Positions 15,979 to 54,173 of a stretch of 64,000 nucleotides of DNA are shown one piece after another (the first letter of the stretch is position 1; each line of letters starts with the position of its first letter). Source of the DNA: Vairimorpha necatrix (Eukaryota); the NCBI GenBank assembly GCA_036630325.1, contig CP142732.1, positions 310,001 to 374,000 on the forward strand. The letters are read 5' to 3'. A model generated the notes under the pieces. It saw nothing but the letters and a program-made list of their open reading frames with translations. It was not told where the DNA came from and searched no databases. The position numbers and the translations under genes are program-made.

Positions 15979-17225
15979 CACCAGGTTGATTCTGCCTGAC
16001 GTAGACGCTATTCCCTAAGATTAACCCATGCATGTTTTTGATATGGAAAAATGGACTGCTCAGTAATACTCACTTTATTTAATGTATTAAATTAGTATAA
16101 CTGCGTTAAAGTGTAGCATAAGACATATACAGTAAGAGTGAGACCTATCAGCTAGTTGTTAAGGTAATGGCTTAACAAGGCAATGACGGGTAACGGTATT
16201 ACTTTGTAATATTCCGGAGAAGGAGCCTGAGAGACGGCTACTAAGTCTAAGGATTGCAGCAGGGGCGAAACTTGACCTATGGATTTTATCTGAGGCAGTT
16301 ATGGGAAGTAATATTCTATTGTTTCATATTGTAAAAGTATATGAGGTGATTAATTGGAGGGCAAATCAAGTGCCAGCAGCCGCGGTAATACTTGTTCCAA
16401 GAGTGTGTATGATGATTGATGCAGTTAAAAAGTCCGTAGTTTATATTTAAGAAGCAATATGAGGTGTACTGTATAGTTGGGAGAGAGATGAAATGTGACG
16501 ACCCTGACTGGACGAACAGAAGCGAAAGCTGTACACTTGTATGTATTTTTTGAACAAGGACGTAAGCTGGAGGAGCGAAGATGATTAGATACCATTGTAG
16601 TTCCAGCAGTAAACTATGCCGACGATGTGATATGATATTAATTGTATTAGATGATAGAAATTTGAGTTTTTTGGCTCTGGGGATAGTATGATCGCAAGAT
16701 TGAAAATTAAAGAAATTGACGGAAGAATACCACAAGGAGTGGATTGTGCGGCTTAATTTGACTCAACGCGAGGTAACTTACCAATATTTTATTATTCAGA
16801 GAAGATTTTCGATCTGAGAATGATAATAGTGGTGCATGGCCGTTTTCAATGGATGCTGTGAAGTTTTGATTAATTTCAACAAGACGTGAGACCCTTTTAT
16901 TAATAGACAGACACAATCAGTGTAGGAAGGAAAGGATTAAAACAGGTCCGTTATGCCCTCAGACATTTTGGGCTGCACGCGCAATACAATAGATATATAA
17001 TCTTTATGGGATAATATTTTGTAAGAGATATTTGAACTTGGAATTGCTAGTAAATTTTATTAAATAAGTAGAATTGAATGTGTCCCTGTTCTTTGTACAC
17101 ACCGCCCGTCGCTATCTAAGATGATATGTGTTGTGAAATTAGTGAAAACTACTTGAACAATATGTATTAGATCTGATATAAGTCGTAACATGGTTGCTGT
17201 TGGAGAACCATTAGCAGGATCATAA
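15979..17225 (+). rRNA. Microsporidian small-subunit rRNA (Nosema/Vairimorpha type, about 1.25 kb)
   Basis: Starts CACCAGGTTGATTCTGCCTGAC, contains GTGCCAGCAGCCGCGGTAA and TTGTACACACCGCCCGTCG, ends GCAGGATCATAA. Confidence 0.98.
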
Positions 17226-19523: not shown

Positions 19524-19809
19524 TAAGTATTTTTGAGTGAACTTTGATAGTACGAGAGGAACTCTAAGTGATGACCACTGGTAGTGCGATTAACTATTAA
19601 GTTATGTTGCTTAGCTACGTCGTTTCGATTAAGGCTGAAAGCCTCTTAAGCCTGAAGCGTAGCTCAAAGATATATTTAGGAGAATACTACTCTTTTAAGC
19701 AGAACTGTAAGAATGAAGGTGTATGCCGACATTTTGAGGTTACTGCTTTTTTTGTATGTATAGTAGGTGTTGTATACTATAAGAGATGGTACTTTATATC
19801 TAGATTTGG
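17262..19809 (+). rRNA. Large-subunit rRNA with fused 5.8S-like 5' part
   Basis: GAACTTAAGCATAT, CCCGTCTTGAAACACGGACCAAGG, TAACTATGACTCTCTTAAGGTAGCC, sarcin-ricin loop AGTACGAGAGGAAC. 3' end inferred from TCTAGATTTG and is approximate. Confidence 0.95.
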
Positions 19810-19816
19810 TACCATT

Positions 19817-19878
19817 ACAAGAGAGCGTCTACATCGCGGAGGGCGGGACCGATGTTTTTTAAATAGGTGCAAATTTCT
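19817..19878 (+). ncRNA. 5'-truncated HDV-like ribozyme copy
   Basis: Keeps P2 AGAGA/TTTCT, P3 GCG/CGC, P1 3' strand GGAGGGC and J4/2 GCAAA, but has no P1 5' strand and L3 is mutated (TCTACAT). Confidence 0.65.
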
Positions 19879-20009
19879 AAGTCTTACCAACCTTTTGACC
19901 TGGGCGAGGTCGGGCATGATACTGATGCTGTATTGTTCCGCTGAACTGAGTCGTGTTCTTAAATGGTGAATTAGCCAGGCGTTTTCGTTTTTCATCAGAC
20001 CCATAAAAA

Positions 20010-20078
20010 ACCCTCCACAAGAGAGCGTCCACGTCGCGGAGGGTGGGACCGATGTTTTTTAACTAGGTGCAGATCTCT
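20010..20078 (+). ncRNA. HDV-like self-cleaving ribozyme (complete fold)
   Basis: P1 ACCCTCC/GGAGGGT, P2 AGAGA/TCTCT, P3 GCG/CGC, L3 TCCACGT, P1.1 CC/GG, P4 ACC...GGT, J4/2 GCAGA. Confidence 0.85.
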
Positions 20079-20334
20079 AAGTCTTACCAACCTTCGGCTG
20101 CTGGTTGGTAAGTAGGGTCAGCTATACTCTAGGGGTGGGAGACCCATTGCTGGTGAGAAGAACGCCGTTAACTTTCGAGTAATTCTTCATATTTTTAACC
20201 TGGGAGAGGTTGGGCATGATACTGAAGCTGTATTGTTCCGCTGAACTGAGTCGTGTTCTTAAATGGTGTATTGAACCAGGCGTTGTGTTTTCGTCAGGTC
20301 CGCGAAATATGTAGTCAGAGATGACTAAGGATCT
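20064..20334 (+). repeat. 271-bp direct repeat, left copy (partner 27009-27279)
   Basis: Matches 27009-27279 with two substitutions seen. Contains the ribozyme 3' end, hairpins and a LINE 3'UTR-like segment. Confidence 0.9.
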
Positions 20335-20414
20335 TCAAAAAGAATACCAATGAGTTATAGAAACAAATGCTTTTTGTGTGATGGACCACAAGAAAATTTA
20401 GAACACTTTCTGCT

Positions 20415-20483
20415 ACCCTCCATAAGAGAGCGTCCACGTCGCGGAGGGTGGGACCGATGTTTTTTAACTAGGTGCAGATCTCT
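20415..20483 (+). ncRNA. HDV-like self-cleaving ribozyme at the 5' end of the LINE
   Basis: Same double-pseudoknot: P1 20415-21/20443-49, P2 20425-29/20479-83, P3 20430-32/20440-42, L3 20433-39, GG 20450-51, J4/2 GCAGA 20474-78 with candidate catalytic C at 20475. Confidence 0.87.
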
Positions 20484-20485
20484 AA

Positions 20486-21625
20486 ATGAAGGGTAAAGCA
20501 AGAGAAAGCAGGAGCGAGCTCAGTAGAGCAAAAAGTGACCACTTTGGTGGTCCAAACAACAATTTAGATATAGAAATGTATTTAAAACAACAAACTAAGC
20601 ATGTATATGCTAATAAAAGTTTCCCAAGTGTTACTTTCAAAAATGATGGAGAAATGAAATATTTTCTCAAGAAAATAAAAATTCTCTCGGAAAGAATTAA
20701 TAAAAATGATATTTTTGACACATCAAAAAAAGAAAACAATAAAGATCTTAGTGATCTTAAAAGATACATAGCTAGCACTACTGAATTATTACTGATTCAG
20801 CAGACATATCTGGAGCTCTTCCATGACAAGCTAGAAAAACAAAATATCAAATTAAAAAATTTGATATGAAGGGTAAAGCAAGAGAAAGCAGGAGCGAGCT
20901 CAGTAGAGCAAAAAGTGACCACTTTGGTGGTCCAAACAACAATTTAGATATAGAAATGTATTTAAAACAACAAACTAAGCATGTATATGCTAATAAAAGT
21001 TTCCCAAGTGTTACTTTCAAAAATGATGGAGAAATGAAATATTTTCTCAAGAAAATAAAAATTCTCTCGGAAAGAATTAATAAAAATGATATTTTTGACA
21101 CATCAAAAAAAGAAAACAATAAAGATCTTAGTGATCTTAAAAGATACATAGCTAGCACTACTGAATTATTACTGATTCAGCAGACATATCTGGAGCTCTT
21201 CCATGACAAGCTAGAAAAACAAAATATCAAATTAAAAAATTTGATATGAAGGGTAAAGCAAGAGAAAGCAGGAGCGAGCTCAGTAGAGCAAAAAGTGACC
21301 ACTTTGGTGGTCCAAACAACAATTTAGATATAGAAATGTATTTAAAACAACAAACTAAGCATGTATATGCTAATAAAAGTTTCCCAAGTGTTACTTTCAA
21401 AAATGATGGAGAAATGAAATATTTTCTCAAGAAAATAAAAATTCTCTCGGAAAGAATTAATAAAAATGATATTTTTGACACATCAAAAAAAGAAAACAAT
21501 AAAGATCTTAGTGATCTTAAAAGATACATAGCTAGCACTACTGAATTATTACTGATTCAGCAGACATATCTGGAGCTCTTCCATGACAAGCTAGAAAAAC
21601 AAAATATCAAATTAAAAAATTTGAT
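20486..21625 (+). repeat. Three tandem 380-bp copies of the ORF1 5' end
   Basis: Units start at 20486, 20866 and 21246, each at the ATG. The first two give identical 127-aa ORFs ending at an ATGA stop/start overlap. Confidence 0.95.
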
Positions 21626-22919
21626 TAAAAATAATCTGATGGATGACAGTAATCAATTTACAGAATCAACAAAAAATAAAATTGAGATGATGATTGAGAA
21701 TCACTCAAAAGAATGTGTAGAACAAAAGGATAATAACTCCGATGTTCCAAATGATACCAGTAGCGAAACCCTTCAGTTAGCTACTGGAAACAATGATATT
21801 TCTAAATTAGAAATCATAAATGAAGATGTTTTAATTAATGTCAAAAATATCGTGTCTGCTGTCAAAGTAGAAGAAGAAGATCGATTGTCAGATGATGGCA
21901 AAAGAAAATGTATAGGTGTCTCAAATGCGTCTACAAATATTATAATTAATAAAAATATTAAAACAAAAGATGTTAAGCTAGACTTAGCTTTCATTAATAA
22001 AAAAGCAGTAGTTAGACATCTGTCAACTATCTCTGCTATTATAGCTGGTAAAAGAAAAGCTCCTAAGAATGGAGTCAAGCTTTTCCATATAAACGAAGAC
22101 GGATGGACATCTGTCAAACACACATTCAAGCCTAAAGTCCAGATAGACTTGAAGAAAAACAGAAGTGGTAAAACCACAGATAAAACCAACTTTAATAGAT
22201 TTAAATCACTTAAAGTAGAAACTAGTGGCAATGTAAAAGTGCCCAAAAAGATTAATCATGAAGCTGTAAAGAGAAAGAATATCATTCCTAAAAAAGATCA
22301 TGAAAAGGAAAGATTACAAAATCAGAGAATAAATTTTACAAAAAAAACGAAGGACAGAAAAAATGAGAAATGTCAACAAAAAAGAGTTCCAGTTTTACCA
22401 AAGAAAAACTGGGCCAAAGAGCTATCTGAAGAAGCTCTTATGAAAATTATTAAGGATGGTAGAATTATTTCCAAGTGTAAGTTTAGGATAGCTCTTGTGT
22501 CTGGACTCGGATTGAAAGGGAAACCTCAATCTAGAGACGCTTGGGCAGCCTTAGCTGATGTGGAAAATAAAGATATACCACTTATAAAACAATTTAAAGA
22601 TTCGGAAGTAGTACTTCTGATGATTAGAGAACACGTGGGCCAAAAGGTACTAAGCAAAATTAAAGAAAAGTTCGGAGGTTCTAATATCTGCGATGAAGTT
22701 AATTTCTTCACCGACTTTATGTCTTTAACAAAAACAACTGTTCTAGGAGAGCTGCAAAGACTCTCTGGAACGCATAAAAATTTTGTACCGCTTGTAAAAG
22801 CATGTTGGTACATAACTAAAGAATTAAATAAAGAAAACCCAAACCATGGTTCTTTCATTATTTTAGAAAATATGATGGGTGAGCCTGCCCGAGAATCTAA
22901 GGACTTTAACAATGAATAA
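21246..22919 (+). CDS. LINE ORF1 protein (basic, no recognised domain)
   Basis: 557-aa Lys-rich ORF directly upstream of ORF2 and overlapping it (ATGAATAA). Confidence 0.8.
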   Translation: MKGKARESRSELSRAKSDHFGGPNNNLDIEMYLKQQTKHVYANKSFPSVTFKNDGEMKYFLKKIKILSERINKNDIFDTSKKENNKDLSDLKRYIASTTELLLIQQTYLELFHDKLEKQNIKLKNLIKNNLMDDSNQFTESTKNKIEMMIENHSKECVEQKDNNSDVPNDTSSETLQLATGNNDISKLEIINEDVLINVKNIVSAVKVEEEDRLSDDGKRKCIGVSNASTNIIINKNIKTKDVKLDLAFINKKAVVRHLSTISAIIAGKRKAPKNGVKLFHINEDGWTSVKHTFKPKVQIDLKKNRSGKTTDKTNFNRFKSLKVETSGNVKVPKKINHEAVKRKNIIPKKDHEKERLQNQRINFTKKTKDRKNEKCQQKRVPVLPKKNWAKELSEEALMKIIKDGRIISKCKFRIALVSGLGLKGKPQSRDAWAALADVENKDIPLIKQFKDSEVVLLMIREHVGQKVLSKIKEKFGGSNICDEVNFFTDFMSLTKTTVLGELQRLSGTHKNFVPLVKACWYITKELNKENPNHGSFIILENMMGEPARESKDFNNE

Positions 22920-25900
22920 AGTATCTTTGTTAAAGTCCTGTTATTATAGGAAATTATTTTCCTATAACAAGAGTGATATTTTCAAATCTCTAAATAAAAA
23001 AACGCATAATCCAATTGGATTTACTCAGATTAAAAATACTTTCCAAACGACAACGAGATTGAATAGTCTCAAATATTTTTCTATTAGAAAGAATATGTGG
23101 TGGAAGAAAGTACAAGAACAATATTGTATTGTCAAGATACAAAGAATTCCTTATGGAGTGAAAGATCTCCTCAAAGACTTATGTAAGAAGAACTCTCTTT
23201 TGGAGAATTCCATCATTACAGCAAGAAAGTATAGACGAAGAGACACGTCTTTTACAAAAATAATAGTTGAAAAACTATACGCAAATTTATTGATTAAGAC
23301 AGTTAAAGCTAAAGGCTTTAAAGTTTTAAATGATAATAGAAAAGAACTAGAGAAATCTAGTAAAGTAAATAAAAAGACCAAAGAGAACATAAAACTCTTA
23401 AGTCTAAACATTAATCATCTCTCTAATAAGAGAGAAGAACTTGAGTTTCTTCTTAAGAAGGAGAAACCAGAAATTATGTGTTTACAAGAAACTTGGAGAC
23501 AATCTACAAGACCTTTAAAACTTGAAAAATACACTACAGTTGAAACACCTAGTGGTGGAAAAAATAAACCAGGATTAATAACTCTGGTTAGAAATAATGG
23601 AGCGATCAGATGTTCCAAAAAAGGAACCGACTCAAACATTCTGCAAACTGTAGTTGAGTTTAGTTCAGCAGGCAAATGGATTAAGTATTTAGTCTTAAAT
23701 GTCTACATACCACAAAACAAGGATCTCAAAAGGGAGACCTTGGCTAGATTATTTTCTCTTTTAGAAAAAGAGAATTTCAGAAATAACTATAGTGAGATCA
23801 TAGTGATGGGAGATATGAATATGCAGAGTTCTAGTCTCAAGAAAAAATTAAATGTAGTTGGTTTGCCAGTTACAATAAAATATAACAGCAACGATGGTAC
23901 AAGGATCCTCAAAGATGGTAAAAGATCTAAGAGGAAAATTGATACCATCTTTCGACTAAAAAGTAATGATAATGAGAAGATCATTATATCCAAGTCTTGG
24001 GTATTAAGTGATCACTTAGTGCTCAAAAGAAGTATTAAACTTGCCGTTGATAAGATCTCCGATCAACTAGTTTATGATAAGAAAATGCTGGAAAATCCAA
24101 AAGTGATTAAAAAGCTAAAAAAGAAGTTGTGTAATCAACAATTAAACATGAATAATCTCCCCGAGATTATTCAGAAAGTTTGTACATCTTTGAAGATTTA
24201 CAAAAAGAGAAGAGTCCATACTGGACTTACAATGAGATGGAGATATTTAAAAGTCTTCAAAGAAAAACGTCTAGCAGCAAGAGCTGTTATGAAAAATTAC
24301 AATGAAATCAACTCAATTAGATTCGAATATCTCAAAAAGAGAGTAGACGAAACTAAAAAGTTGATTCGCAAAGATAGATCGAAACTTTGGGCTTTAAGAG
24401 GAATAAAGCTCTTTAAAAGTAACAGATCCCGAGAATTCTGGCAATGGCTGAAAAATAGAAGTGTTTCCATTCGTTTGGATCAAGTGGCTCTAATTGACCA
24501 CAATAAGCTTCTTCAGACTTGCCGAGCAAAGAAGCTAGAAATAGCAAATAATTTTTACGCTGATTTGGCGTCAGAGAATGATATAGATGTCAATGTCTAT
24601 GATAAAGTAGATCTTGTTGATCTTCCCCCAGAGATAACAGATGAAGAATTTCTATCCGCACTGAAGAAATGTGGAAATAACAAAGCTGCCGGTCCTGATG
24701 AGATTCCAACCGAGCTATACAAATACTTACTGACTAGAGCAGTAGAAGATAAATTCTTTAAATTCATGCTACATGAATTTAATAAATATATTTGTGGAAA
24801 TAGTACTCCTGAATATTGGAGCATGGCAAACATGATTTGCCTTCACAAAAAAGGAGATGAGACAGATCTGAATAATTATAGGGGAATCTCCTTAATTAAC
24901 ACAATTAGTAAGATCTATCTCAAGATAATAAATGACAGGTTAACTCAATTTGTCGAAGAACAAGATATACTCTCTAGATACCAAGCAGGATTCCGAGCAG
25001 GTGAAGAGTGTATGAATCAGATTACATCTCTACTAGAAATAGTGAGAAGAAGAGAATTCAGAGGCTTGAACACAATAATGTGTTTCATTGACTTTGAAAA
25101 AGCTTATGATAATGTAAGTCATGACTTATTATTTGAAAAGCTTACAAAACTTAATATCCCATTGTATTTAATCAATACAATAAAGGATATTTATAAATAT
25201 ACCACCATGCGTGTGAAAATTGGTGGTGACACGTCAAGTGGTTATAGCTACAGAAAAGGAGTGAGACAAGGGTGCCCTTGTTCTCCAATGCTGTTCAATA
25301 TATTCATCAATGATATTTTTGACGGCATAGAAGGAGTTTTGATCCCAAGATCAAATACGAGAGTTCCGGGACTGATGTTCGCAGATGATATTGTTGTCTT
25401 CGGAAACAACATTGATGATCTTAATAATAAGATCAATAGAATTTCAAAGTGGGCAGTTAATAACAGAATGAAGATTAACTGCACAAAAAGCGGAGTATTA
25501 GAATGGAATGCTCATTCTAACATACAAGAATTCCGAAGTTTATATTCTCTCAGTACAGACTTTGGTGTGATTGAAGAAGTCACTGAATACAGATATCTAG
25601 GTGTCTTAATTAAAAGAAACACGCTAGAAGAACACTTGGTTAAAGACGCAGCAATGCGTGGCAAGAAAGCCTTGGACGCCTTGATGCCCAAGTTGATGAA
25701 TAGCAGCATCAATCTCTACTTCAAGGCGATCTTAATAAAATGTGTACTAGTACCCACACTAATGTATGGCAGTGAATTGTGGGGAATGTCAAGTACAAGA
25801 GCAGGTAAGATTAACAGGATCTTAAGAAAATCTATCAGAATGATATTCAAAAGAGTATTAGTTCCACTAGATAGAGTAATGGACGAGTTCAGTATCGAAC

Positions 25901-26604
25901 GAATTCATATACAAGCAGCTTTGAGTAGATTCAGAGCATACAACAAGTGGAAACACAATAAGACAATCATATCGGATATAATCTCAATTAATCCGAAAGA
26001 AAGAAAAACTACCTGGTGTTCAAGAACACAAAGATGGTTAAAACGATTTGTTGGCAACGAATACGAATCAAGTGATAGTAGATTTATCACTACAAAAATA
26101 ATTGATGTACTAAGAAGTCGAAGAACTCTAAATACTTCTTTAGCTGCATCAATAGCAAACCAATATGACATAAGAAATTCACAAATAAAATATGTCATGA
26201 ACAAAATAAACAATAGAAAAATTAGAACATATACTAGATTGAGATGTAATCTAGTAAAGTGGTCCTCAGCAATAGCATATTCAAAAAGAATACCAATGAG
26301 TTATAGAAACAAATGCTTTTTGTGTGATGGACCACAAGAAAATTTAGAACACTTTCTGTTGGAGTGCGTCTGTTTTACTGACATTAGAACATCTTTTGAA
26401 AATAAACTGCCTCTACTGACTTGTTCAAAAACAAATATCCGAGAAAAAACCAAACAACTCCTTGGTAATAAAATCGGACTAAAAAATAACCCAGATAAGA
26501 TAAAAGAACTTTGTTGGACTATAGAGTTCTTAGATAGAATGGTTGTCTCTAGAAGAATTATATTTGAAAAGAAACTTAAAGAGATAACAAAACAGGATAA
26601 TTAA
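22912..26604 (+). CDS. LINE ORF2: AP endonuclease, reverse transcriptase, C-terminal CCHC finger
   Basis: SLNIN, CLQET, NVYIP, MGDMN, SDH (APE); FIDFEKAYD, GVRQGC, FADD (RT); CFLC...HFLLEC. First ATG is 22912 (track start 22879 is GTG). Confidence 0.95.
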   Translation: MNKVSLLKSCYYRKLFSYNKSDIFKSLNKKTHNPIGFTQIKNTFQTTTRLNSLKYFSIRKNMWWKKVQEQYCIVKIQRIPYGVKDLLKDLCKKNSLLENSIITARKYRRRDTSFTKIIVEKLYANLLIKTVKAKGFKVLNDNRKELEKSSKVNKKTKENIKLLSLNINHLSNKREELEFLLKKEKPEIMCLQETWRQSTRPLKLEKYTTVETPSGGKNKPGLITLVRNNGAIRCSKKGTDSNILQTVVEFSSAGKWIKYLVLNVYIPQNKDLKRETLARLFSLLEKENFRNNYSEIIVMGDMNMQSSSLKKKLNVVGLPVTIKYNSNDGTRILKDGKRSKRKIDTIFRLKSNDNEKIIISKSWVLSDHLVLKRSIKLAVDKISDQLVYDKKMLENPKVIKKLKKKLCNQQLNMNNLPEIIQKVCTSLKIYKKRRVHTGLTMRWRYLKVFKEKRLAARAVMKNYNEINSIRFEYLKKRVDETKKLIRKDRSKLWALRGIKLFKSNRSREFWQWLKNRSVSIRLDQVALIDHNKLLQTCRAKKLEIANNFYADLASENDIDVNVYDKVDLVDLPPEITDEEFLSALKKCGNNKAAGPDEIPTELYKYLLTRAVEDKFFKFMLHEFNKYICGNSTPEYWSMANMICLHKKGDETDLNNYRGISLINTISKIYLKIINDRLTQFVEEQDILSRYQAGFRAGEECMNQITSLLEIVRRREFRGLNTIMCFIDFEKAYDNVSHDLLFEKLTKLNIPLYLINTIKDIYKYTTMRVKIGGDTSSGYSYRKGVRQGCPCSPMLFNIFINDIFDGIEGVLIPRSNTRVPGLMFADDIVVFGNNIDDLNNKINRISKWAVNNRMKINCTKSGVLEWNAHSNIQEFRSLYSLSTDFGVIEEVTEYRYLGVLIKRNTLEEHLVKDAAMRGKKALDALMPKLMNSSINLYFKAILIKCVLVPTLMYGSELWGMSSTRAGKINRILRKSIRMIFKRVLVPLDRVMDEFSIERIHIQAALSRFRAYNKWKHNKTIISDIISINPKERKTTWCSRTQRWLKRFVGNEYESSDSRFITTKIIDVLRSRRTLNTSLAASIANQYDIRNSQIKYVMNKINNRKIRTYTRLRCNLVKWSSAIAYSKRIPMSYRNKCFLCDGPQENLEHFLLECVCFTDIRTSFENKLPLLTCSKTNIREKTKQLLGNKIGLKNNPDKIKELCWTIEFLDRMVVSRRIIFEKKLKEITKQDN

Positions 26605-27008
26605 TATGAATAATTAAAAACAATAAAATCTAGAAATGGAAGAAAGAGATGTTATTTTACTAACAAGAAAACTTATATTTAATTATATTTGACCTGGGAG
26701 AGGTCGGGCATGATACTGATGCTGTATTGTTCCGCTGAACTGAGTCGTGTTCTTAAATGGTGTATTGAGCCAGGCGTTTTCGTTTTTCATCAGACTCATG
26801 AAAGTGGGTCTCTAGTCATATTATGACTAAGGATGTATCCTATGGGAACAAACTTTTCTCCTACAAGCGAGGCCGTTAAGGTATGCTGGCGTGTAAACGC
26901 ACTTATTGATGATTTTTTCTTTATTAGTGGAGTTTTTGGTGGCTTGGAGGCTTTTCTTCGTTTTGCTGATTCTGTCTTTTTTTTACAATAAACAATTTTA
27001 TTTTTTTT

Positions 27009-27279
27009 TAGGTGCAGATCTCTAAGTCTTACCAACCTTCGGCTGCTGGTTGGTAAGTAGGGTCATCTATACTCTAGGGGTGGGAGACCCATTGCTGGTG
27101 AGAAGAACACCGTTAACTTTCGAGTAATTCTTCATATTTTTAACCTGGGAGAGGTTGGGCATGATACTGAAGCTGTATTGTTCCGCTGAACTGAGTCGTG
27201 TTCTTAAATGGTGTATTGAACCAGGCGTTGTGTTTTCGTCAGGTCCGCGAAATATGTAGTCAGAGATGACTAAGGATCT
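27009..27279 (+). repeat. 271-bp direct repeat, right copy
   Basis: Matches 20064-20334. Continues as a diverged LINE 3'UTR copy to 27426 and resumes after the LTR insertion at about 30419-30448. Confidence 0.9.
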
Positions 27280-27426
27280 GTTACCTACGGGAACAAATTT
27301 TTCTCCTACAAGCGAGGCCGTTGAGGTATGCTGGCGTGTAATCGCAATTATTGATGTTTTTCTGGTTGGTGGAGTTTTTGGTGGCTTGGTGGCTTTTCTT
27401 CGTTTTGCTGATTCTGTCTTTTTTAC

Positions 27427-30418
27427 TGTGGTATAATATCTACCACATGGATCATAAGTAACCAATAGGACAACAACACGTCAACGATGTTTCTATCACA
27501 TCTTGAAACACGACGTCTATTGGTCTATCATGAAACAATATATTCTTATTGGTTACCAACAACTATAAATAAAGAAATTATGAACATTAATATGATGCAC
27601 AAGAAATCTAATACGCTCTCCTATCCTTCACAACAGGGCAACGACGCCTCAAATAAAACTATTTACACTAAACAAAACTCTACCTTGGGAATCAACGGTT
27701 CTAATAACCGTAGCATCTTAGAATGCTTTCTTGCCTCTGGCACAATTCCCGGCAATTACGCCAATTTGAGCTCAAATGGCATTAAAGGTAAAAACGCAGT
27801 TACAGCTGATAACAAACATCATTACGCGGAATTCAAAAGAATAGTTGAAGGAACAGACGTACCCATCATCGAACATATACTCAAAATATTTAATATAAAA
27901 ACCGACCTAACAACTGCAGGTCTCAAAGAGTTCGAAACTCTTTCCGAGTATAATAAGTGGAATGACACACAAGCCGGTCAAATCTACCATAGTCTAATCT
28001 ATGATTCCACATATAAATCAAAATTAACAAATAAAAGTTATAAAGCATTAAGAAAAGAACTTCTTAATATACTATACCCCAAAACACAACACCGAATAAT
28101 CTCTCAGAAACTTGATAATATTAAACAGTGCAATTACTTTACCATAAATGAATACATGGATGAAATTAGTAAAGAATTAGAAGGATACACTCATATTAAC
28201 GAACTTTCTCGAAAAGAATTAGAACGAAAACAAGAAGAAATATTCTTTAGAGGATTAGGCAAATACACAACAATTAAAATAGCCGACCAGAAACTTAAAT
28301 CGGCGTTATTTGAAGAAATTATACAATTCCTAGTAGACCTTGAAGAAACTATTTTAGCACAGTCAACAGAGACAAGTCAACGTGCTGTAAAAGACATAGG
28401 ATTTACCAAAACTACAAATAACTTTACAAGCAAGAAGTGGTGCAAGTATCATAACTCCAAATTCCATAACACCAAAGATTGTTTGCTTCATAAGAACACC
28501 CCATCTAACGATAATAAAAATCTTATTATATCGGAACAAAAAACTGATAGTCATGAAGGCATTAAAATCAATGGGAAAATTAATGACACTATGTTACAGT
28601 TATTCGTGGACACAGGGGCTACATGCAATTATATACATGAGAACATTGTCAATATATTAAAACTGCCAATATTTGAAACAAAACCACTTACTATGGTATT
28701 CGGCAATGGTACAAAAGAAACAACTAATAAGATAGTCGAATCAAGATTAGATATCAGTGGTAGAACATTTTTGATAAAGTTTTATGTATTACACAAAATT
28801 CCAGAAGATATAATTTTAGGTTATGAATTCCTCGCTGCAAACGACGCAGTGTTAAACATTAAAAAGAAAATTATTATTGTGGACAAAGGAACGATAATTC
28901 CATTCATTGGTGTCGAAAAATCATCAGAAGAGATGCTAGATGAAGTATTAGCAGAAAATACTTGTCTAACCATTAAAAACAAAAATTTTCATATTAAGGG
29001 GGCAGATAATATTGCTGCGGACTCCCTATCGCGATGCCTCATATCTCAAGCAACATCGCTAAAAGTAGAGTATGACAATGCTGTAAGAAGAGCTTGCGCG
29101 TCAAACAACGACGCATTACTAATAAATGACAAAGGTAAACTAGAAGTTAAACATGACAAGATCAAGTCGTTTCTTAAGACTATACACAAAATATCAGGAC
29201 ACCGAGGGGTTTCAACGCAGTATAACAATATAAAAAATTATATTTACGTTAAAGATGCTCTGAAGAACATAGCAAAAATAGTCCATAAATGTAACATTTG
29301 CAGAAACTATAAGATTATTAATAACAAGAAACAACAAGAAGTAAGAATGAACTCCGACAAGCTATACGAACGAATCTCAACGGATATATTTGGGCCTTTT
29401 CAATATTATACTCCCATTCCTAATTCCGAAAAGAGGACAGGATATATCTTAACAATAACAGATATATATTCAAGGGAAACACAGTTAGTTTTTCACAAGC
29501 AAATTAAGACACAAGAACTTATAGACGACGTAGAATATTGGATTTCTAGTAGAGCAAAACCAAAGCATTTGATCTCAGATAACGGACGGCAATACACCTC
29601 AACCGACTTCACTAATTACCTTACGGACAAGGATATAAACCATATTCTTATACCAACGTATACACCTAGATCCAATGGTATATCAGAGAGAATTAATCAA
29701 ACCATTGCTTTTATCATATCTATTAATAAATATAGGAATATTTACGACACCGTCAAAGAAGCAGAGAACACATTAAATATCAATTATAATCGAGGTATTG
29801 GAACTTCTCCCTATCTCTTAACGCACAAAAAGGATTTCTTCGATATCGAAAATAAGCTTCAAAACTTTAGAATAAATACAAAGAATTTATCGTACACTCC
29901 AAAGTTTAAAGTGGGAGATATAGTATATAAGCGAAATCTAAAGGCAGGAAAACTCGATCGTAAGTATGGACATAAACAAAGCATAGAAGAAGTTGGAAGT
30001 AAAGGGAATTGGGTTCGTCTAAAGAATGAAGAATCTTGGACGCACGTCCGAAACCTAAAGTGCTAGTCGAAGGTGGCAGTATGTGGTATAATATCTACCA
30101 CATGGATCATAAGTAACCAATAGGACAACAACACGTCAACGATGTTTCTATCACATCTTGAAACACGACGTCTATTGGTCTATCATGAAACAATATATTC
30201 TTATTGGTTACCAACAACTATAAATAAAGAAATTATGAACATTAATATGATGCACAAGAAATCTAATACGCTCTCCTATCCTTCACAACAGGGCAACGAC
30301 GCCTCAAATAAAACTATTTACACTAAACAAAACTCTACCTTGGGAATCAACGGTTCTAATAACCGTAGCATCTTAGAATGCTTTCTTGCCTCTGGCACAA
30401 TTCCCGGCAATTACGCCA
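27427..30418 (+). mobile_element. Non-autonomous Ty3/Gypsy element lacking RT/RNase H (element C)
   Basis: 337-bp LTRs 27427-27763 and 30082-30418, identical by eye, TSD TTTAC, purine tract GAAGGTGGCAG before the 3' LTR. Confidence 0.95.
27487..30066 (+). CDS. Gag-protease-integrase polyprotein with in-frame loss of RT and RNase H
   Basis: Gag similar to element A, FVDTGA protease, then directly HIKGADNIAADSLSR, HKISGH...CNIC and SDNG...SER integrase. No YxDD motif. Start codon uncertain (several ATGs in the LTR). Confidence 0.88.
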   Translation: MFLSHLETRRLLVYHETIYSYWLPTTINKEIMNINMMHKKSNTLSYPSQQGNDASNKTIYTKQNSTLGINGSNNRSILECFLASGTIPGNYANLSSNGIKGKNAVTADNKHHYAEFKRIVEGTDVPIIEHILKIFNIKTDLTTAGLKEFETLSEYNKWNDTQAGQIYHSLIYDSTYKSKLTNKSYKALRKELLNILYPKTQHRIISQKLDNIKQCNYFTINEYMDEISKELEGYTHINELSRKELERKQEEIFFRGLGKYTTIKIADQKLKSALFEEIIQFLVDLEETILAQSTETSQRAVKDIGFTKTTNNFTSKKWCKYHNSKFHNTKDCLLHKNTPSNDNKNLIISEQKTDSHEGIKINGKINDTMLQLFVDTGATCNYIHENIVNILKLPIFETKPLTMVFGNGTKETTNKIVESRLDISGRTFLIKFYVLHKIPEDIILGYEFLAANDAVLNIKKKIIIVDKGTIIPFIGVEKSSEEMLDEVLAENTCLTIKNKNFHIKGADNIAADSLSRCLISQATSLKVEYDNAVRRACASNNDALLINDKGKLEVKHDKIKSFLKTIHKISGHRGVSTQYNNIKNYIYVKDALKNIAKIVHKCNICRNYKIINNKKQQEVRMNSDKLYERISTDIFGPFQYYTPIPNSEKRTGYILTITDIYSRETQLVFHKQIKTQELIDDVEYWISSRAKPKHLISDNGRQYTSTDFTNYLTDKDINHILIPTYTPRSNGISERINQTIAFIISINKYRNIYDTVKEAENTLNINYNRGIGTSPYLLTHKKDFFDIENKLQNFRINTKNLSYTPKFKVGDIVYKRNLKAGKLDRKYGHKQSIEEVGSKGNWVRLKNEESWTHVRNLKC

Positions 30419-30599
30419 TTTACAATAAACAATTTTATTTTATTTTTAACTCAAATAATTCTGGTCCAGGGCATGGGTTATATCTACCTCTTACAAGCAA
30501 AGAAAAACATGAATTTTTAATGTCCGGTGGGGTTTCTTATCTTTGCTAATTCGGTTTTTTACACTTTAAATTTTTATTTTATTTTTAGGATTACAGACC

Positions 30600-30795
30600 A
30601 CGGGAATAACTTTCTACACTACAGGAGAGGCCGTGAAGGCATGCTGGCATATAAGGCAATTATTAATGATTTTTCTTTTTTATGATAAGTTTTTATCTAC
30701 TCGGAGCTTTTCTTTCTTAGCTGATTGTGTCTTTTTTGCATAAATATTATAATTTTATTTTTTACAATAAACATTTTTATTTTTATTTATTTTTT
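30600..30795 (+). repeat. Older degenerate copy of the LINE 3'UTR end
   Basis: GAGGCCGTGAAGGCATGCTGGC, GCTGATTGTGTCTTTTTT and TTTTACAATAAACATTTTTAT match motifs in 26844-27009. Confidence 0.7.
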
Positions 30796-47300: not shown

Positions 47301-50222
47301 ACAAAGAAGATTACCTATACAGTTCCATTTAAATATTTTGAAAAGGCGAAAATGGAAATTAAAAGACTTAAAGATGCAGATATAATTGAAAAGAGTTCTT
47401 CTGATATAATGAGCTCTACATTTTTCATAGAAAAGAAAAATAAGGAGTTACGTTTAGTAGTAGATTATAAGGAAGTAATTAAAGCCTTGCAAGATGACCC
47501 ATACATATTACCAAAATTGAGGATTGTATAACAATATTGGAATCTAACAAATTTTTTATGCAGATTGATTTAAGTAACGAATTTAATCAGATAAAAATAG
47601 ATGAAAAAAGCAAGAAATATACATTGTTTTTTTTTGTTAGGACAATAGTGGAAATGCAAGAGAAGTTCCTTTAGGATTAATCCCGCTCAAAATTATTTCA
47701 AATTAATATTTCAAACATATTAGGAGATTTAGATAATGTATTTGTTTTTATAAATTATATTGTGATTTATAATAAAACAAAGAAAAGTCATTTAATTTCC
47801 TTAGAACAAATACTAGAAAGATTATACAGCAAAAATGTCCAAATAAATTTAAGAAATCGAAATTTTATCAACTATAAACTGAATTTTGGATTACAAAATA
47901 AAACACGAAGGGATTTTCCTAAAAACTAAAATTTAAATAATAGAATATTTAAGAAAGAAATAAAAACGAAAAAGGATATACAAAAACTGTTAGGAGTAAT
48001 AAACTGGTACAGAAAGTTTATTCCAGATCTATCGATAAAGATTAATAAATTAACCGATATGTCAAAGAACAAGAATGAATATAAAATCAAAGTAACGACC
48101 GAAATGAGAAAGGAAATTGACAAAATCAAAGAATGGATTCTAGGTAATCACAAGTTATTATTTTCCGATTACAATAGTAAATTTACATTACAAGTTGGCG
48201 CAAGCGAAATAGGTTAGGAAGTACGCTACACAAAAGAATAAAATCATTAGATATTGTAGTAAAATATTTTCTGGTCCAGAATTAAATTACAGTATTGTTG
48301 AGAAGGAATTTTTGGCAATAGTTTTATCTATGCTCAATTTAAAAAACATAATCCAAGGATCTTATGTAGAGATTTATGCTGATAGTAAAAATTGTATCTA
48401 TGAAAATAATATAGAACATCAAGAATTAATAGATGGAAATTGTTGTTAAATGAATTTAGTTTTTTACTAAATCATATAGATGGAAAAAAAATTGTATTGC
48501 AGATTACCTATCAAGAGATTTCACTGGAATCGGAAATAATGAAAACAATAATCACGAAGAAAATATCAAATAAACCAAGAATGTTATCGCAGAGACAAAG
48601 TGGTAACTTTATAGTTGATAAAGAAAAGCGCTACATAGTTAAATTTAATCATGTAAAGAAATTTATATCATTTATGCATGAATTTGGATTTCATAGTTGA
48701 ATTTCTACCCTATATTACAATATAAAGCGCTTTTACTATATAAAACGAATCTTTAAAAAAATAAAAAATACCATTAGCCAATGTAAAATTTGTGGAATTT
48801 ATAAAAATAAGCATCCGTAAAAGTATATCACTATTAATATAGTAGCACAAAGAAAATTTGAAAAGGGGAGTATGATATTTTCGGCCCCTTTAGTCTTGAT
48901 AATTTAATTACTTCAGAAAGGAAAGAGTTAGGATATATTCTTACTATGACGGATATATATTCCCGATATACTAAACCTTATTTCTTATACACTATAAATT
49001 CAGAATCAATGTTTTGATGCTTTGAAAATTGGATTAAAACTTTTGGAAAACCAGCATCTATAATATCAGACAATAGGCGCCAGTTCATAAGTAAAACAAC
49101 GCAAGATCATTTAATTAAAGAAAAAATTCTACATACCTTGATACCCACATATAACCAAGCTCTAATGGCTTAAAGAATCAACGAATAAAAGAATTTTATT
49201 CACTCTGAGCTTCAACGAAGGTATAAATATACGAGAAGTAGTTATAAAGGCAGAAAATGCAATTAATTATAATTATAATAAAACGATTTAATCTTCTCCA
49301 TTTTCAATCATTAATGGATTTAGCATTTATGACCCATTACAGAGAGATTATGATTATATTAGTATCTTAAACGAAGAAAAAATCTATTTGGTAAAAGTTG
49401 GAGACATTTTTAGGAAAAGAATATATAATGCTAAAAAATTGGGACCAAAATGGAGCAAGAGAATGAAAGTATTTTGTGTCGGCAATAAGGGGTACTAGAT
49501 TAAACCGAAAGGGAATAGTAGATGGACTCATATTACAGGGGTTTGCATTTTTTTAGTCCAACTTTTGCATTTTTATAGTCCATTTTTTGAAAAAAAACCA
49601 AGATTTGATAAAAAATCAAAAATCAATAGAATTATGCAAAAAATATTTACAAACTCATTTAATTAGATAAACTCGTTTTTCTGCCTTGCCATTTCTAACC
49701 ATTTAACATATTAGTGTAGAATCCATTACACGAAAGGCTGAAATCATCGTTCAGCACTTGTTCCAAATCCGTTTCAACAGCATTATTTGAGTTCCTTATA
49801 GCACAAAACCTTGATTTTATCATAGAAAAAAACTCTTCAATGGGATTAAGCTGTGGGATATACGGAGGCAAAAAAACATAAGATATGCCTAATTCTCTTA
49901 GCTTACCTAAAACTTCTCTTGAATGATGAAATTTAGCATTATCCATGATTAAAATCTTTTGAGAATTTCTTTGGAAAAATTCTACAAGATGCCTTTCAAT
50001 AAATTCGACAAATAGAGCAGAATTATATGCGCCCCTTTTCATTTCGTATGCTATAATATTCGATTTTGAAATTACGCAAAGACAACTTAAATTTTTGCCT
50101 CGATTTGCAGGGACTGTTTTAAATGCTTTTTTATTTTTATATGTGTCAATGGATTTATTGTTGTCCTTCATCAAAAATTAGGGGTTTATAAAATTTAAAA
50201 ATAAATATCAACATCCCCCTTC

Positions 50223-53051
50223 TTAAAACATATCGTCAACTATTAATTTCAGCTGTGCAGCATGCCTTTTAAATCTTCTACAACCAACATCAATTAGGTA
50301 AGTGTTATTATCAAGGGAGTCAACTACCATTCCTCTGTTTAAGTATTTTGGAGCACCTTTTTTAATTATGCCTTCGTTCCTTATCATCACAACATCCCCC
50401 TTTTCGAATTTGTATTCCGCTGGTTTCCTTTCATGCTTTGTTTTGAATTTTAATATTTGCCGTAGTTGTGTTTGTTTCAATTTCTCAGCATTTTCTTCAT
50501 TACATGCTTCTGTTGGAGTCATTATAATTCCAGTGTGAAATGTGGTGTTGTATACGTGTAAGGCATGTATTAATCTTCGTGTCAGTAGTTTACCGGTAAT
50601 ATTCTTATAAATAAGGTCCTGTAAAGTCCTGTTAAAACGCTCTACCCTTCCATTTGATTGATGATGGAATGGTGAGGTATAATGCAGACTAATATTTTTG
50701 TCGGCACATAAATTTTTAACTGCATTTCCCAAATTTTCTTTAGATTGATCTAGAATTAATGTTTTTATCTTTAACTTTTCATTGATCTCTTTAATAAATT
50801 CTGCGACTTTTGAGGTTTCACGCGATTTAATTATCTTAGCAAATCCGTATCTTGTAAAATAATCAATTCCGGTGATAATGTATTGGTTATTAATAGGGCC
50901 AATAATATCAATGGCAACCTTCTCCCCCTTCTCGTATGCTGTTACATATAAGAATCTTCTGTCCTTTTTTGGATTATATTTTGCACAAATAGTGCATCTT
51001 TTAATAACCTTTCTTATCACTTCTTCCACGTTTTTTACCTTAAATCCCCTTTTCTCGATTTCATACTTCATAGATTGTATCCCTCTATGCAAGAGCTCTT
51101 TATGGATTTGCTCTATCTGTTCTTCAAGGCAAACTGTTCTTTCAACTTCATTTATCGTAGGCTGTGAATCTAATTGTGGGAGAGGGCTAATTTCTGCTGA
51201 ACAATTGGTAGGGTTTCGGCTCAGACAGTCTACGTGTGGTATCTCCTTTCCTTTTTTATACTTTATTTTAAAACTAAAATTAGCAATTCTCTCCAACCAT
51301 CTTTGTATTCTTAACGACTTTATTTCTCCTTTATTTAGTGCCTCTAGGGCTTTATGGTCCGTTATGACTTCAAAATCAGTACCATACAAAAAATACTTAA
51401 AATGTTCCATGCCCCATAGTATTGCTAGGCATTCCTTTTCACTTATGCTGTATTTTATTTCCGTTTCCTGCAGTCTTCTGGATGCAAAAGCTACGGCTTT
51501 ATCTTCACCTTCGAACTCTTGGGATAATATCGCAGCTATCCCACTGTTTGACGCATCTGTCTCTAATTTAAAGTGCTTATTAAAATCTGGTTGTGTCAAT
51601 TCTGTACTATTTTTAAGTGAATTTATGAGGGCTAGGAATGCATTGTTTTCTGCTTCTCTCCAGTAAAACGTCTTATCACCCTTTAACAAATCATAAAGGG
51701 GCCCGCCTATTAATGCACAATTGGGGATGAATTTTCTATAGTAATTTATCAGCCCTAGGAATTCCTGTACTTTCTTCTTATCTTTCGGAGGCTCTAGATC
51801 TTCGAGCGCCCGTGTTCGTTTCACACAAGGTAGTACTTTATTATAGGTTATTTTGTGGCCCAAAAATTTTACTTCCTCTTTTTTGACTATTGATTTGTCC
51901 ATATTTATATTCAAATTATATTGTTTAAGTATATCTGTAACTCTCTTATATGCCTCGTCATGTTCTATCTCATTCCTACCAAAAACTAGAATGTCGTCCA
52001 CATAGCAATAACATGACTTACCGAGCTCACTATTCAGAACATGATCCATATATCGTTGAAAAATAGCTGGGCTATTTTTAAATCCTTGTGGCATTACTGT
52101 CCACTCATATAGCACATGCTTGTATCGGAATGCTGTTTTGTGTCTATCTCTAACACTTAATGGTATCTGAAAAAATCCGTCTTTCAGGTCGATCGTGGAA
52201 AAAAACTTCATACCTCTTAAATTGCATAATATTTCGTCGATATTTGGTAACGAATAACGATCCAGTTCGACGAGATTGTTCAATGCCACCAAATTAGTCG
52301 TTATTCTAACCTTTCCATCAGGCTTTATTACTGGTCGAAGATTATTTAGCCAGGAGGAATTCGACTTACGAATGTATCCTTTCTCAATGAGTGTCTTTAT
52401 AGATTTATCCGCTTCAACTTCTAGCTTTTTTGGTAAAGGGTATACCTTTTCCACAACCTTACATCCTTCTTTTGTTTTTATTTCACAAATATATTTAAAT
52501 TTATCTTTGTTCATCACCTTCTTTATCGTGTTTACTCCTATCAGAATTTTCTCAGATTTAACCTTTGGGAGGACATAGAAATCGGCCGTACATTTAATGT
52601 TTTTATATTTAAATTCTAGTGAAACATATTGTTTAATACTAAATTGTTCTTCCAAACAGGTCCAGAATTTTATTTCCTCATTCAGTTCTTTAGGTATGAG
52701 TGATAGTCTTTGTATCACTGAGTAACTCATAAAATTATATCTTGCACCAGTGTCAAATAAAACTGCAACTTTTACGTCTTTAACATAGATAAAACTCTCT
52801 TTATTTAAAATTTCTGCAATATCTTCGCTTATCTCATTAATTCTCCTAGATCTATCGGTCTCTTTTCCGTTATTTCTCACATTTTCTGGGTACTTTCGAC
52901 ATGACCTAGCGTAATGACCCCGTCGTCCGCATTTATAACATCCTGTAGACCTAGAATTTTCGTTAATTTTTAAAGCATTTAATCTTTCTAAAAGAGAATT
53001 TATGTTGTTCTTCTTGTCTACTTGTTTCTCTTTTTTCTTTTCTTCTTCCAT
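50223..53051 (-). CDS. Zinc knuckle-PR-RT-RH-IN polyprotein of element E
   Basis: CYKCGRRGHYARSC, FDTGA, YVDDIL, ETDASN, HKELLH...CTIC, GRVERFN. Confidence 0.93.
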   Translation of the reverse strand: MEEEKKKEKQVDKKNNINSLLERLNALKINENSRSTGCYKCGRRGHYARSCRKYPENVRNNGKETDRSRRINEISEDIAEILNKESFIYVKDVKVAVLFDTGARYNFMSYSVIQRLSLIPKELNEEIKFWTCLEEQFSIKQYVSLEFKYKNIKCTADFYVLPKVKSEKILIGVNTIKKVMNKDKFKYICEIKTKEGCKVVEKVYPLPKKLEVEADKSIKTLIEKGYIRKSNSSWLNNLRPVIKPDGKVRITTNLVALNNLVELDRYSLPNIDEILCNLRGMKFFSTIDLKDGFFQIPLSVRDRHKTAFRYKHVLYEWTVMPQGFKNSPAIFQRYMDHVLNSELGKSCYCYVDDILVFGRNEIEHDEAYKRVTDILKQYNLNINMDKSIVKKEEVKFLGHKITYNKVLPCVKRTRALEDLEPPKDKKKVQEFLGLINYYRKFIPNCALIGGPLYDLLKGDKTFYWREAENNAFLALINSLKNSTELTQPDFNKHFKLETDASNSGIAAILSQEFEGEDKAVAFASRRLQETEIKYSISEKECLAILWGMEHFKYFLYGTDFEVITDHKALEALNKGEIKSLRIQRWLERIANFSFKIKYKKGKEIPHVDCLSRNPTNCSAEISPLPQLDSQPTINEVERTVCLEEQIEQIHKELLHRGIQSMKYEIEKRGFKVKNVEEVIRKVIKRCTICAKYNPKKDRRFLYVTAYEKGEKVAIDIIGPINNQYIITGIDYFTRYGFAKIIKSRETSKVAEFIKEINEKLKIKTLILDQSKENLGNAVKNLCADKNISLHYTSPFHHQSNGRVERFNRTLQDLIYKNITGKLLTRRLIHALHVYNTTFHTGIIMTPTEACNEENAEKLKQTQLRQILKFKTKHERKPAEYKFEKGDVVMIRNEGIIKKGAPKYLNRGMVVDSLDNNTYLIDVGCRRFKRHAAQLKLIVDDMF

Positions 53052-53551: not shown

Positions 53552-54173
53552 CAAAAATTAGGGGTTTAGGGTTTATAAAATTTAAAAATAAATATCAACA
53601 ATATGAAAACCCATAATGCCTTGTGGTATGAGCATTAAATCCAGTTTCATCCAAAAAATCGAATTTTCTAGTGAATATCGATATTTCCATAGCATATTCT
53701 GCTCTTTTATCAATTTTGTCCTGCGAATTACGCTCTGCAGGAATTAGAGACAGTCTTTTTCTTGTAATATTTAGATATTTCAACTTTCTCGAAATAGTTG
53801 ACAAAGACATTGAAACATTTGCTATTGTATAAAGTTCTTCCTTGATTTCACTTAGAGTCTTGTCATTACTACGTGCAATGACGTTTTTAAGCACAATGTC
53901 GATAGGCTTTAAAACCCCATGAGCTGAAACTTTAGAACGATTTGTTGTACCTGTAGAAACAATGGATTCTCCCTCTAACATTTTCCTATGGATCCCATAA
54001 ATTGTTTTATAACTTAAATCTAATGTTGTAGAAATATCTTTTAGGGTCAAGTTTTCGTTTTTTATATGTCTTTCAATGAGCTTTAAGACATCAGGAGTGA
54101 CCGAAGATCTCGCTTTTCTAGGCATTGGGGGGGGTTTTTTTTCAAAAAAAAGGCCATTGAAATAAAAAAAAAT

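What the first reader, a model, noticed from the sequence alone, without database searches (positions are those of the whole stretch)
19817..20334. Short non-coding units of ribozyme plus LINE 3'UTR (SIDE-like non-autonomous elements)
Seen: unit 1 (19817-20009) and unit 2 (20010-20334) each join the ribozyme to sequence homologous to the LINE 3'UTR (26690-26835) with no ORF. A third, 5'-truncated unit follows the LINE (27009-27426, resuming near 30419) and a decayed 3' end lies at 30600-30795. Known: Drosophila R2 SIDEs have this ribozyme plus 3'-end design. Inference: a SINE-like family with no Pol III promoter, mobilised by the neighbouring LINE and accumulating in tandem.
Basis: partly seen in the sequence, partly recalled or inferred. 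Interest (0 to 1): 0.75.

Follow-up and report, generated by a model that had tools for sequence, protein, structure and literature searches.

The report
Ribozyme-headed jumping element behind rDNA
In a microsporidian parasite, a short non-coding jumping element that starts with a predicted self-cutting RNA borrows the copying machinery of a larger retrotransposon, and both pile up, nested inside each other, directly behind almost every ribosomal RNA gene.

Summary
Real, and larger than described. The units are pieces of one ~495-nt non-coding family: HDV-like ribozyme fold (nt 1-70), a 115-nt middle found nowhere else, the LINE's structured 3' module, AATAAA and a T-rich tail. The genome holds at least 68 matches; 21 full-length copies were seen, 11 with 12-16-bp target-site duplications, all starting at the predicted cleavage site. 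Four matches lie far from rDNA. Corrections: the units are nested, not tandem; unit 1's ribozyme is decayed; unit 2 is 3'-cut; the 'third unit' is the rest of a full copy that starts at 20415 and was split by the LINE. The LINE has no ribozyme: 9 full copies have their duplication 0-13 nt before the ORF1 ATG. So this resembles the Drosophila R2/R1 hybrid SIDEs, not a deletion product of its partner. Seventeen of 18 dispersed rDNA units carry such arrays right behind an intact LSU, all in the sense of rRNA transcription, with no fixed target sequence. Cleavage and transcription are inferred, not shown. The scan had not noted this sequence before. New variant of a known kind.

The parts
15979..17225 (+). 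Microsporidian SSU rRNA gene (context)
   Evidence: Rfam RF02542, 1057.6 bits
17340..19771 (+). LSU rRNA gene, complete to its last helices; the array begins right behind it
   Evidence: Rfam LSU; local scan ends the model at 19771; all 18 rDNA copies share sequence up to 19756
19772..19810 (+). Short worn remnant resembling the 5' part of the ribozyme
   Evidence: Comparison of LSU-end junctions, read by eye
19811..19893 (+). Unit 1, 5' part: decayed ribozyme (P1 broken, L3 changed) plus ~15 nt of the middle part
   Evidence: Alignment; fails descriptor
19894..20004 (+). Unit 1, 3' part: LINE-type 3' module from its recurrent start point, cut off by unit 2
   Evidence: 96% to the LINE 3' UTR; same junction in L056
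20010..20080 (+). Unit 2: intact HDV-like fold. P1 20010-16/20038-44, P2 20020-24/20074-78, P3 20025-27/20035-37, L3 20028-34, P1.1 20029-30/20045-46, P4 20048-68, candidate catalytic C 20070; predicted cut 5' of 20010
   Evidence: Descriptor scan, MFE fold gives P1, P3, P4, weak CPEB3 match
20081..20194 (+). Middle part (about 115 nt, hairpin-rich), found only inside this family
   Evidence: 43 genome matches, all at places of the family; fold -34.9 kcal/mol
20195..20334 (+). Unit 2: first half of the LINE-like 3' module (84% to the LINE), cut at element nt 325
20334..20412 (+). Piece of LINE ORF2 (copy of about 26280-26358) that interrupts unit 2
   Evidence: Repeat family D13
20415..20485 (+). 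Element 3, nt 1-71: intact ribozyme; 20470-20485 is the left copy of the LINE's target-site duplication
20486..27009 (+). Full-length APE-type LINE starting at the ORF1 ATG; first 380 nt present three times; ORF1 21246-22919 (557 aa, no Pfam match), ORF2 22879-26604 (endonuclease + RT), 3' module from 26688, AATAAA at 26987, T-rich tail
27010..27426 (+). Element 3, nt 56-472; 27010-27025 is the right copy of the duplication
   Evidence: 414 of 417 identical to a full-length copy
27427..30418 (+). Ty3/gypsy-type LTR element (protease and integrase, no RT found) inserted into element 3 with a 5-bp duplication
   Evidence: Identical LTRs, Pfam, junctions
30419..30448 (+). Element 3, nt 468-497: AATAAA and T-rich tail
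   Evidence: 29 of 30 identical
30526..30763 (+). Old decayed 3' ends at the far end of the array
   Evidence: 76-77% to the 3' module; similar pieces end the arrays L054, L057, L063

Best explanation
A ~495-nt non-autonomous retroelement (SIDE-like) that lives in the zone just behind the LSU gene of dispersed rDNA units. Inferred cycle: RNA polymerase I reads past the LSU end into a copy; the HDV-like ribozyme cuts the RNA at +1 and frees the element, so it needs no promoter; the structured 3' module taken from the LINE is bound by LINE ORF2 in trans; target-primed reverse transcription inserts a new copy with a 12-16-bp duplication and a variable T-rich tail. LINE and short element insert by position and orientation (behind rDNA, sense strand), not at a fixed sequence, and mostly land in older copies, giving nested arrays. 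The LINE begins at its ORF1 ATG and has no ribozyme, so the short element is a hybrid of a ribozyme of unknown origin and the LINE 3' end. Shown: anatomy, copies, duplications, exact 5' ends, position and orientation. Inferred: cleavage, Pol I co-transcription, which protein moves it, how the target zone is found.
For: 68 matches, a lower bound as 40 of 75 candidates were scored. 21 full-length copies in the window and 28 fetched regions; 11 of 21 have 12-16-bp duplications (two of them, L063/L064, are one event copied with its locus) against 16 of 400 mismatched flank pairs. 29 of 51 ribozyme-bearing pieces begin at +1/+2, also the 4 copies far from rDNA. Descriptor: 2 hits in the window, 0 in 10 window shuffles, 0 of 2000 element shuffles. 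Same tail and same duplication length for the LINE: 9 full copies, duplication ends 0-13 nt before the ATG; ribozyme sequence lies before only 3 of 28 LINE starts, in 2 of them as the duplicated target. 18 rDNA loci, 17 followed at once by the family. 64 of 68 unit matches and 39 of 45 ORF2 matches lie within 50 kb behind an LSU end (6% of the genome), all on the rRNA strand; 38 of 68 within 1 kb (0.12%); 0 of 129 pieces reversed. 11 intact ORF2 copies. The 3' module keeps paired changes between LINE, short element and a distant LINE subfamily: 3 of 20 pairs. Precedent with tested ribozymes: PMC3414825.
Against: No cleavage assay and no RNA data. The Rfam CPEB3 match is only 15.6 bits against a cut-off of 35, and the same family rings at E <= 10 in 13 of 14 control genomes. 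Covariation in the ribozyme does not exceed shuffles (3 pairs changed on both sides, 134 of 500 shuffles as high). The descriptor was written from recalled HDV consensus after seeing the sequence. The first P1 pair is A-U in young copies and A-C in some, not the usual G-U (recalled). 10 of 21 full copies show no duplication. Matches are pieces of nested and partly duplicated arrays, so the counts are not independent events. Pol I read-through in microsporidia is not shown.
Confidence: 0.75

Rival explanations
1. Classic internally deleted derivative: the LINE has, or its ancestor had, this ribozyme at its 5' end, and the short element arose by loss of the ORFs (as R2 SIDE, RIME, NARTc).
For: In the window and in L052 and L053 ribozyme sequence stands directly before ORF1; the 3' module is clearly LINE-derived.
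Against: In the window and L052 the last 15-16 nt of the ribozyme are duplicated behind the LINE, so the LINE inserted into it; the other full LINEs start at the ATG in unrelated flanks. A distant subfamily also starts at its ATG with no HDV-like fold in 6 regions scanned. The middle part has no match in the LINE.
Confidence: 0.1
2. Passive amplification: one old chimera behind one rDNA unit, spread by duplication of rDNA loci and unequal recombination, with no RNA step.
For: Some loci share junctions (L063/L064, L057/L058, L061/L062) and four arrays end in similar decayed pieces, so rDNA loci were copied with their flanks. One longer duplication (about 100 nt, L059) looks recombinational.
Against: Duplications at seven different target sequences, tails of variable length, exact +1 starts in different flanks, and four solo copies, one with a 15-16-bp duplication between host genes.
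Confidence: 0.07
3. Host function first: the ribozyme is kept behind the LSU to cut the 3' trailer of the pre-rRNA, and mobility is secondary.
For: 10 of 18 rDNA units have an intact fold 57-481 nt behind the LSU end; the only RNase III matches in the genome are two domains in one 1145-aa frame (Dicer-like), with no separate Rnt1-type gene among 2 candidates.
Against: One rDNA unit has no element, 4 of 17 arrays show no intact fold in the 10-20 kb read, the distance is not fixed, and the LSU-proximal copies are usually the most decayed.
Confidence: 0.08

Closest known systems
R2/R1 hybrid SIDEs of Drosophila (Eickbush and Eickbush 2012, PMC3414825; abstract and parts 1-3 of 6 read)
   Same: HDV-like ribozyme head that the mobilising LINE does not carry, 3' end of that LINE, about 14-bp duplication typical of the LINE, no Pol III promoter, interspersed with full LINEs in arrays at rDNA.
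   Different: Here the host is a microsporidian; insertions lie behind the LSU and leave it whole, not at one site inside 28S; target sequences vary; copies nest in each other; tails are T-rich; no donor element for the ribozyme was found; activity untested.
R2 SIDE (R2Dwi_SIDE, 529 bp, same paper)
   Same: Size, ribozyme + unrelated middle + LINE 3' end, diverged but structure-keeping 3' end.
   Different: R2 SIDE shares both ends with its partner and uses R2's site; here the partner has an APE endonuclease and no ribozyme.
NARTc, RIME and SIDER with L1Tc/ingi in trypanosomatids (PMC3185411 passages; PMC3383444 and PMC4035085 search listings only)
   Same: Compact (70-77 nt) HDV-like ribozyme at the 5' end of a short non-autonomous element released from co-transcripts; that the partner is an APE-type LINE is recalled.
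   Different: There the ribozyme is shared with the autonomous LINE and also acts as promoter; copies are not confined behind rDNA.
CPEB3 ribozyme (Rfam RF00622)
   Same: 15 of 16 nt of the P3-L3-P3 core match the Rfam consensus; very short J1/2.
   Different: Below the family cut-off; two-pair P1.1; part of a mobile element. Such cores converge (PMC3774820 passages), so no descent is claimed.
Position-specific non-LTR elements such as Dictyostelium TRE3/TRE5 near tRNA genes (recalled, from no call)
   Same: APE LINE that targets a distance and orientation to a host transcription unit without harming it.
   Different: Pol III genes there, Pol I units here; no tethering partner is known here.

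Membership tests
HDV-like ribozyme | Nested double pseudoknot: 7-bp P1, P2, 3-bp P3, 7-nt L3, P1.1, P4 | tested here: met
   All five helices form in unit 2 and at 20415; 92.8% of cells paired against 36-46% for slid partners; not met for unit 1
HDV-like ribozyme | Catalytic C and A in J4/2, U and G in L3 | tested here: met
   C, the last J4/2 A and the L3 G are invariant in 14 variants, the first L3 U in 13 of 14; residues named in PMC3774820 passages
HDV-like ribozyme | Covariation supports the helices | tested here: inconclusive
   3 pairs with two-sided change, not above shuffles; copies are 91% alike
HDV-like ribozyme | Self-cleavage 5' of P1 | not testable with these tools
   Indirect only: 29 of 51 pieces start at +1/+2
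SIDE (Eickbush 2012) | Ribozyme head plus 3' end of a resident LINE, no coding region | tested here: met
   no ORF of 120 aa lies wholly inside a unit
SIDE (Eickbush 2012) | Insertion marks of the partner LINE | tested here: met
   12-16-bp duplications and T-rich tails in both
SIDE (Eickbush 2012) | Inserted at the R1 or R2 site inside 28S | tested here: not met
   Arrays start behind the LSU end; targets vary
SIDE (Eickbush 2012) | Ribozyme derived from a resident R2 element | tested here: inconclusive
   All ribozyme matches but one chance hit belong to this family; R2 proteins were not searched for
Internally deleted LINE derivative (RIME, NARTc, R2 SIDE) | 5' end shared with the autonomous partner | tested here: not met
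   LINE starts at its ATG without ribozyme
Pol III SINE | tRNA, 7SL or 5S head with internal promoter | tested here: not met
   No tRNA, no such Rfam match at E <= 10; a run of six T at nt 46-51 would end a Pol III transcript (established knowledge)
Named LINE clade (L1, R1, RTE, Tad and others) | Place in an RT tree with reference elements | not tested
   Only: APE + RT, best solved relative human L1 ORF2p, E 2.4e-47, where the LINE hits were only L1 and R2

The most novel reading that the evidence does not exclude
The LINE finds the 3' end of RNA polymerase I units by position rather than sequence, and its ribozyme-headed parasite doubles as the cut that removes the pre-rRNA 3' trailer in a parasite where no Rnt1-type enzyme was found; ribozymes left in front of an inserted LINE would also release LINE RNA from the Pol I transcript, making the two elements partners.
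Probability: 0.15. Interest if true: 0.82.

Novelty: new variant of a known kind. Interest (0 to 1): 0.6.

Why it matters
It shows that the ribozyme-plus-LINE-tail design, known from flies and trypanosomes, also exists in a fungal-related parasite, here with a ribozyme that has no parent element in the genome. It also reveals an apparently undescribed LINE family, with relatives in Vairimorpha ceranae and Nosema granulosis, that in this genome inserts almost only behind rDNA without breaking it: a safe-harbour strategy that is directly testable and that bears on how dispersed microsporidian rDNA units end, are processed and are copied.

Tried and rejected
Hammerhead, twister, pistol and hatchet readings: no Rfam match at E <= 10 in 19700-20600 or 26600-27430. 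Pol III SINE: rejected. LSU sequence completing P1 of unit 1, as in some R2: no pairing found by eye; unit 1 is a decayed copy. A ribozyme at the LINE 5' end or in the distant LINE subfamily: none. A donor elsewhere in the genome: 33 of 34 core-pattern hits are family copies, one is chance coding sequence. Expression: no RNA holder listed; the one run X1 is of unknown kind, kept as contigs and may be the source sample; it covers the stretch and shows one junction at depth 3 that is in none of my loci, too weak to use. Other species' DNA: the metagenome scan gave only relatives at 22-36% identity, so rDNA linkage outside this genome is untested. Age gradient: identity falls with distance from the LSU for LINE pieces (rho -0.44, 71 pieces) but not for short-element pieces (rho -0.08, 58 pieces), and pieces are not independent. 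Literature searches listed no paper on a ribozyme or an rDNA-linked LINE in microsporidia; the library lacks most subscription papers, the genome-wide HDV-like surveys of Webb 2009 and Ruminski 2011 were not read, and no supplement was opened, so a listed hit there cannot be excluded.

Full report
Setting. The window is from a microsporidian: SSU rRNA at 15979-17225 and LSU from 17340. A local scan ends the LSU model at 19771 with its last helices whole; the 19868 end comes from the whole-model alignment. The genome (G000, 15.0 Mb, 12 contigs) has 18 dispersed rDNA units. Dispersed rDNA is described for this group (PMC10759460 and PMC10133504, passages only); those passages do not mention elements behind the units.

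The element. Mapping the window and fetched regions against its parts shows one family of about 495 nt: ribozyme (nt 1-70), a middle part of about 115 nt, the LINE's 3' module (about 84-92% to the present LINE), AATAAA and a T-rich tail of variable length. Unit 2 gave 68 matches, a lower bound. In the window and 28 of the 29 regions then held (L077 left out as a repeat of the end of L076) there are 21 full-length copies; 11 of 21 are flanked by 12-16-bp duplications, at seven different target sequences, against 16 of 400 mismatched flank pairs (I did not check whether those 16 come from re-used targets). Four matches lie more than 50 kb from any LSU end; all four begin at +1, they are 78-97% like unit 2, and one has a 15-16-bp duplication between host genes. 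The family is therefore mobile and old.

The ribozyme. Nt 1-69 fold as an HDV-like double pseudoknot; the core matches the CPEB3 consensus at 15 of 16 nt but scores 15.6 bits against 35, and that family rings weakly in 13 of 14 control genomes, so the Rfam hit is only a lead. My descriptor, written from recalled consensus after seeing the sequence, hits 20010 and 20415 and nothing else in the window, 0 times in 10 window shuffles and 0 of 2000 element shuffles. The free-energy fold returns P1, P3 and P4 unaided. Across 14 variants 92.8% of cells pair, but covariation is not above shuffles. The best sign of activity is that 29 of 51 ribozyme-bearing pieces begin at +1/+2, in many different flanks; in HDV-like ribozymes P1 sets the cut (PMC3774820, passages). 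Unit 1's copy is decayed and probably dead.

The window re-read. Behind the LSU come worn ribozyme remnants, unit 1 (19811-20004), unit 2 (first 325 nt of an element), a short ORF2 piece, and a third element that starts at 20415. The LINE sits inside this third element with a 16-bp duplication (20470-20485, 27010-27025); an LTR element sits inside it with a 5-bp duplication; its tail is at 30419-30448. The array is nested, not tandem.

The LINE. ORF2 has an APE endonuclease and RT; 11 copies are intact over the whole length. Nine full-length copies have duplications that end 0-13 nt before the ORF1 ATG; ribozyme sequence precedes 3 of 28 LINE starts, and in 2 of these it is the duplicated target. 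So the LINE does not carry the ribozyme, and how its RNA comes to start at the AUG is unexplained (an internal promoter is the simplest guess). Relatives exist in V. ceranae (clusters at 68-69% over the RT region) and N. granulosis (52%). A distant subfamily in G000 (47-65%, all with stops) lies away from rDNA, also starts at its ATG and also ends in a T-rich tail. The 3' module keeps paired changes across LINE, short element and that subfamily (3 of 20 pairs in 9 sequences), as expected for the handle that a stringent RT binds; this is suggestive, not proof.

Targeting. Seventeen of 18 rDNA units are followed at once by the family; the copy on C10 is not. 64 of 68 unit matches and 39 of 45 ORF2 matches lie within 50 kb behind an LSU end, all on the rRNA strand; 38 of 68 within 1 kb, 0.12% of the genome. 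None of 129 pieces in 17 arrays is reversed. These are pieces, and some loci were copied with their arrays, so the number of events is smaller; still all 20 insertions with a duplication found are in the sense direction, 19 of them in arrays. The duplications share only a purine at the first place (18 A, 2 G; a first T could not be told from the tail). The end of the ribozyme (nt 56-71) was hit repeatedly by both elements. Solo copies have not grown into comparable arrays, so the element's own sequence is not enough; position behind rDNA matters. Tethering to Pol I termination chromatin or opening of the transcribed strand are guesses.

Origin. The 3' module has a recurrent 5' end 84 nt behind the ORF2 stop: five different non-LINE junctions meet it at the same point, one with its own 14-bp duplication. 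A discrete RNA of about 320 nt, perhaps a decay or processing product (an AATAAA follows the ORF2 stop), seems to be copied on its own; joining it behind a ribozyme would make a new short element. Unit 1 looks like such a join. The source of the ribozyme and middle part was not found.

Comparison. It works like the R2/R1 hybrid SIDEs of Drosophila, whose ribozymes were shown to cleave and which use R1 with 14-bp duplications in arrays mixed with R1 (PMC3414825, parts 1-3 of 6). It is not a member in the strict sense: no fixed 28S site, no R2 donor found. It differs from NARTc and RIME in not sharing its 5' end with the LINE. A review of elements in rDNA lists only MITEs for microsporidia (PMC10946416, passages); a ribozyme review covers SIDEs and ribozyme-bearing SINEs of animals and trypanosomes (PMC6765202, passages); PMC7313128 passages name no such element. 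Eight searches listed no description; supplements and papers outside the library were not seen.

Host role. Ten of 18 units have an intact fold 57-481 nt behind the shared LSU anchor, an eleventh at 7.1 kb, two more with one P1 mismatch; four arrays show none in the 10-20 kb read. The only RNase III matches are two domains in one 1145-aa frame. A role in cutting the pre-rRNA trailer is possible for some units but cannot be required for all.

Verdict. Real, mobile, a new variant of a known design; interest 0.6. Cleavage, transcription and the moving protein remain inferred.

Noticed in passing
window 20486-21625: The first 380 nt of the LINE are present three times, 100% identical, head to tail; either a very recent duplication, repeated 5' template jumps or an assembly artefact.
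   Followed up: no
window 26688-27009; L057:3201-3519 in the reversed strand: The LINE 3' module inserts on its own from a fixed 5' point, once with a 14-bp duplication; suggests a discrete ~320-nt RNA.
   Followed up: partly
window 20486 and 27 other LINE starts: Full LINE copies begin at the ORF1 ATG with 0-13 extra bases, i.e. without a 5' UTR; the distant subfamily does the same.
   Followed up: partly
window 26987-27009 and all copies: Both LINE subfamilies and the short element end in AATAAA plus a T-rich, not A-rich, tail on the sense strand.
   Followed up: partly
window 27427-30418: LTR element with identical LTRs and one 859-aa ORF holding protease and integrase but no RT or RNase H match; related copies lie at a similar place in arrays on C4 and C2 (L058, L168).
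   Followed up: partly
L158-L162 (G000 C3, C8, C10, C11, C7): A second, dispersed and broken LINE subfamily at about 47-65% protein identity, away from rDNA: the rDNA preference is confined to one branch.
   Followed up: partly
L063/L064, L057/L058, L061/L062: Pairs of rDNA loci share their first array junctions, so rDNA units were duplicated together with downstream elements.
   Followed up: partly
L065 (G000 C10:158262): The one rDNA unit without the family diverges from the other 17 right after the last LSU helices.
   Followed up: partly
L174 (G000 C1:868348-869277): One 1145-aa frame with two RNase III domains is the only RNase III match in the genome search.
   Followed up: no
window 49533-49599 and 54121-54363: 22-nt tandem repeats in inverted orientation flank a gypsy-type pol ORF at 50223-53051.
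   Followed up: no
L170:564-599 and L171:288-322 as scanned: A 35-nt reversed match to the LSU lies beyond the far end of two arrays.
   Followed up: no
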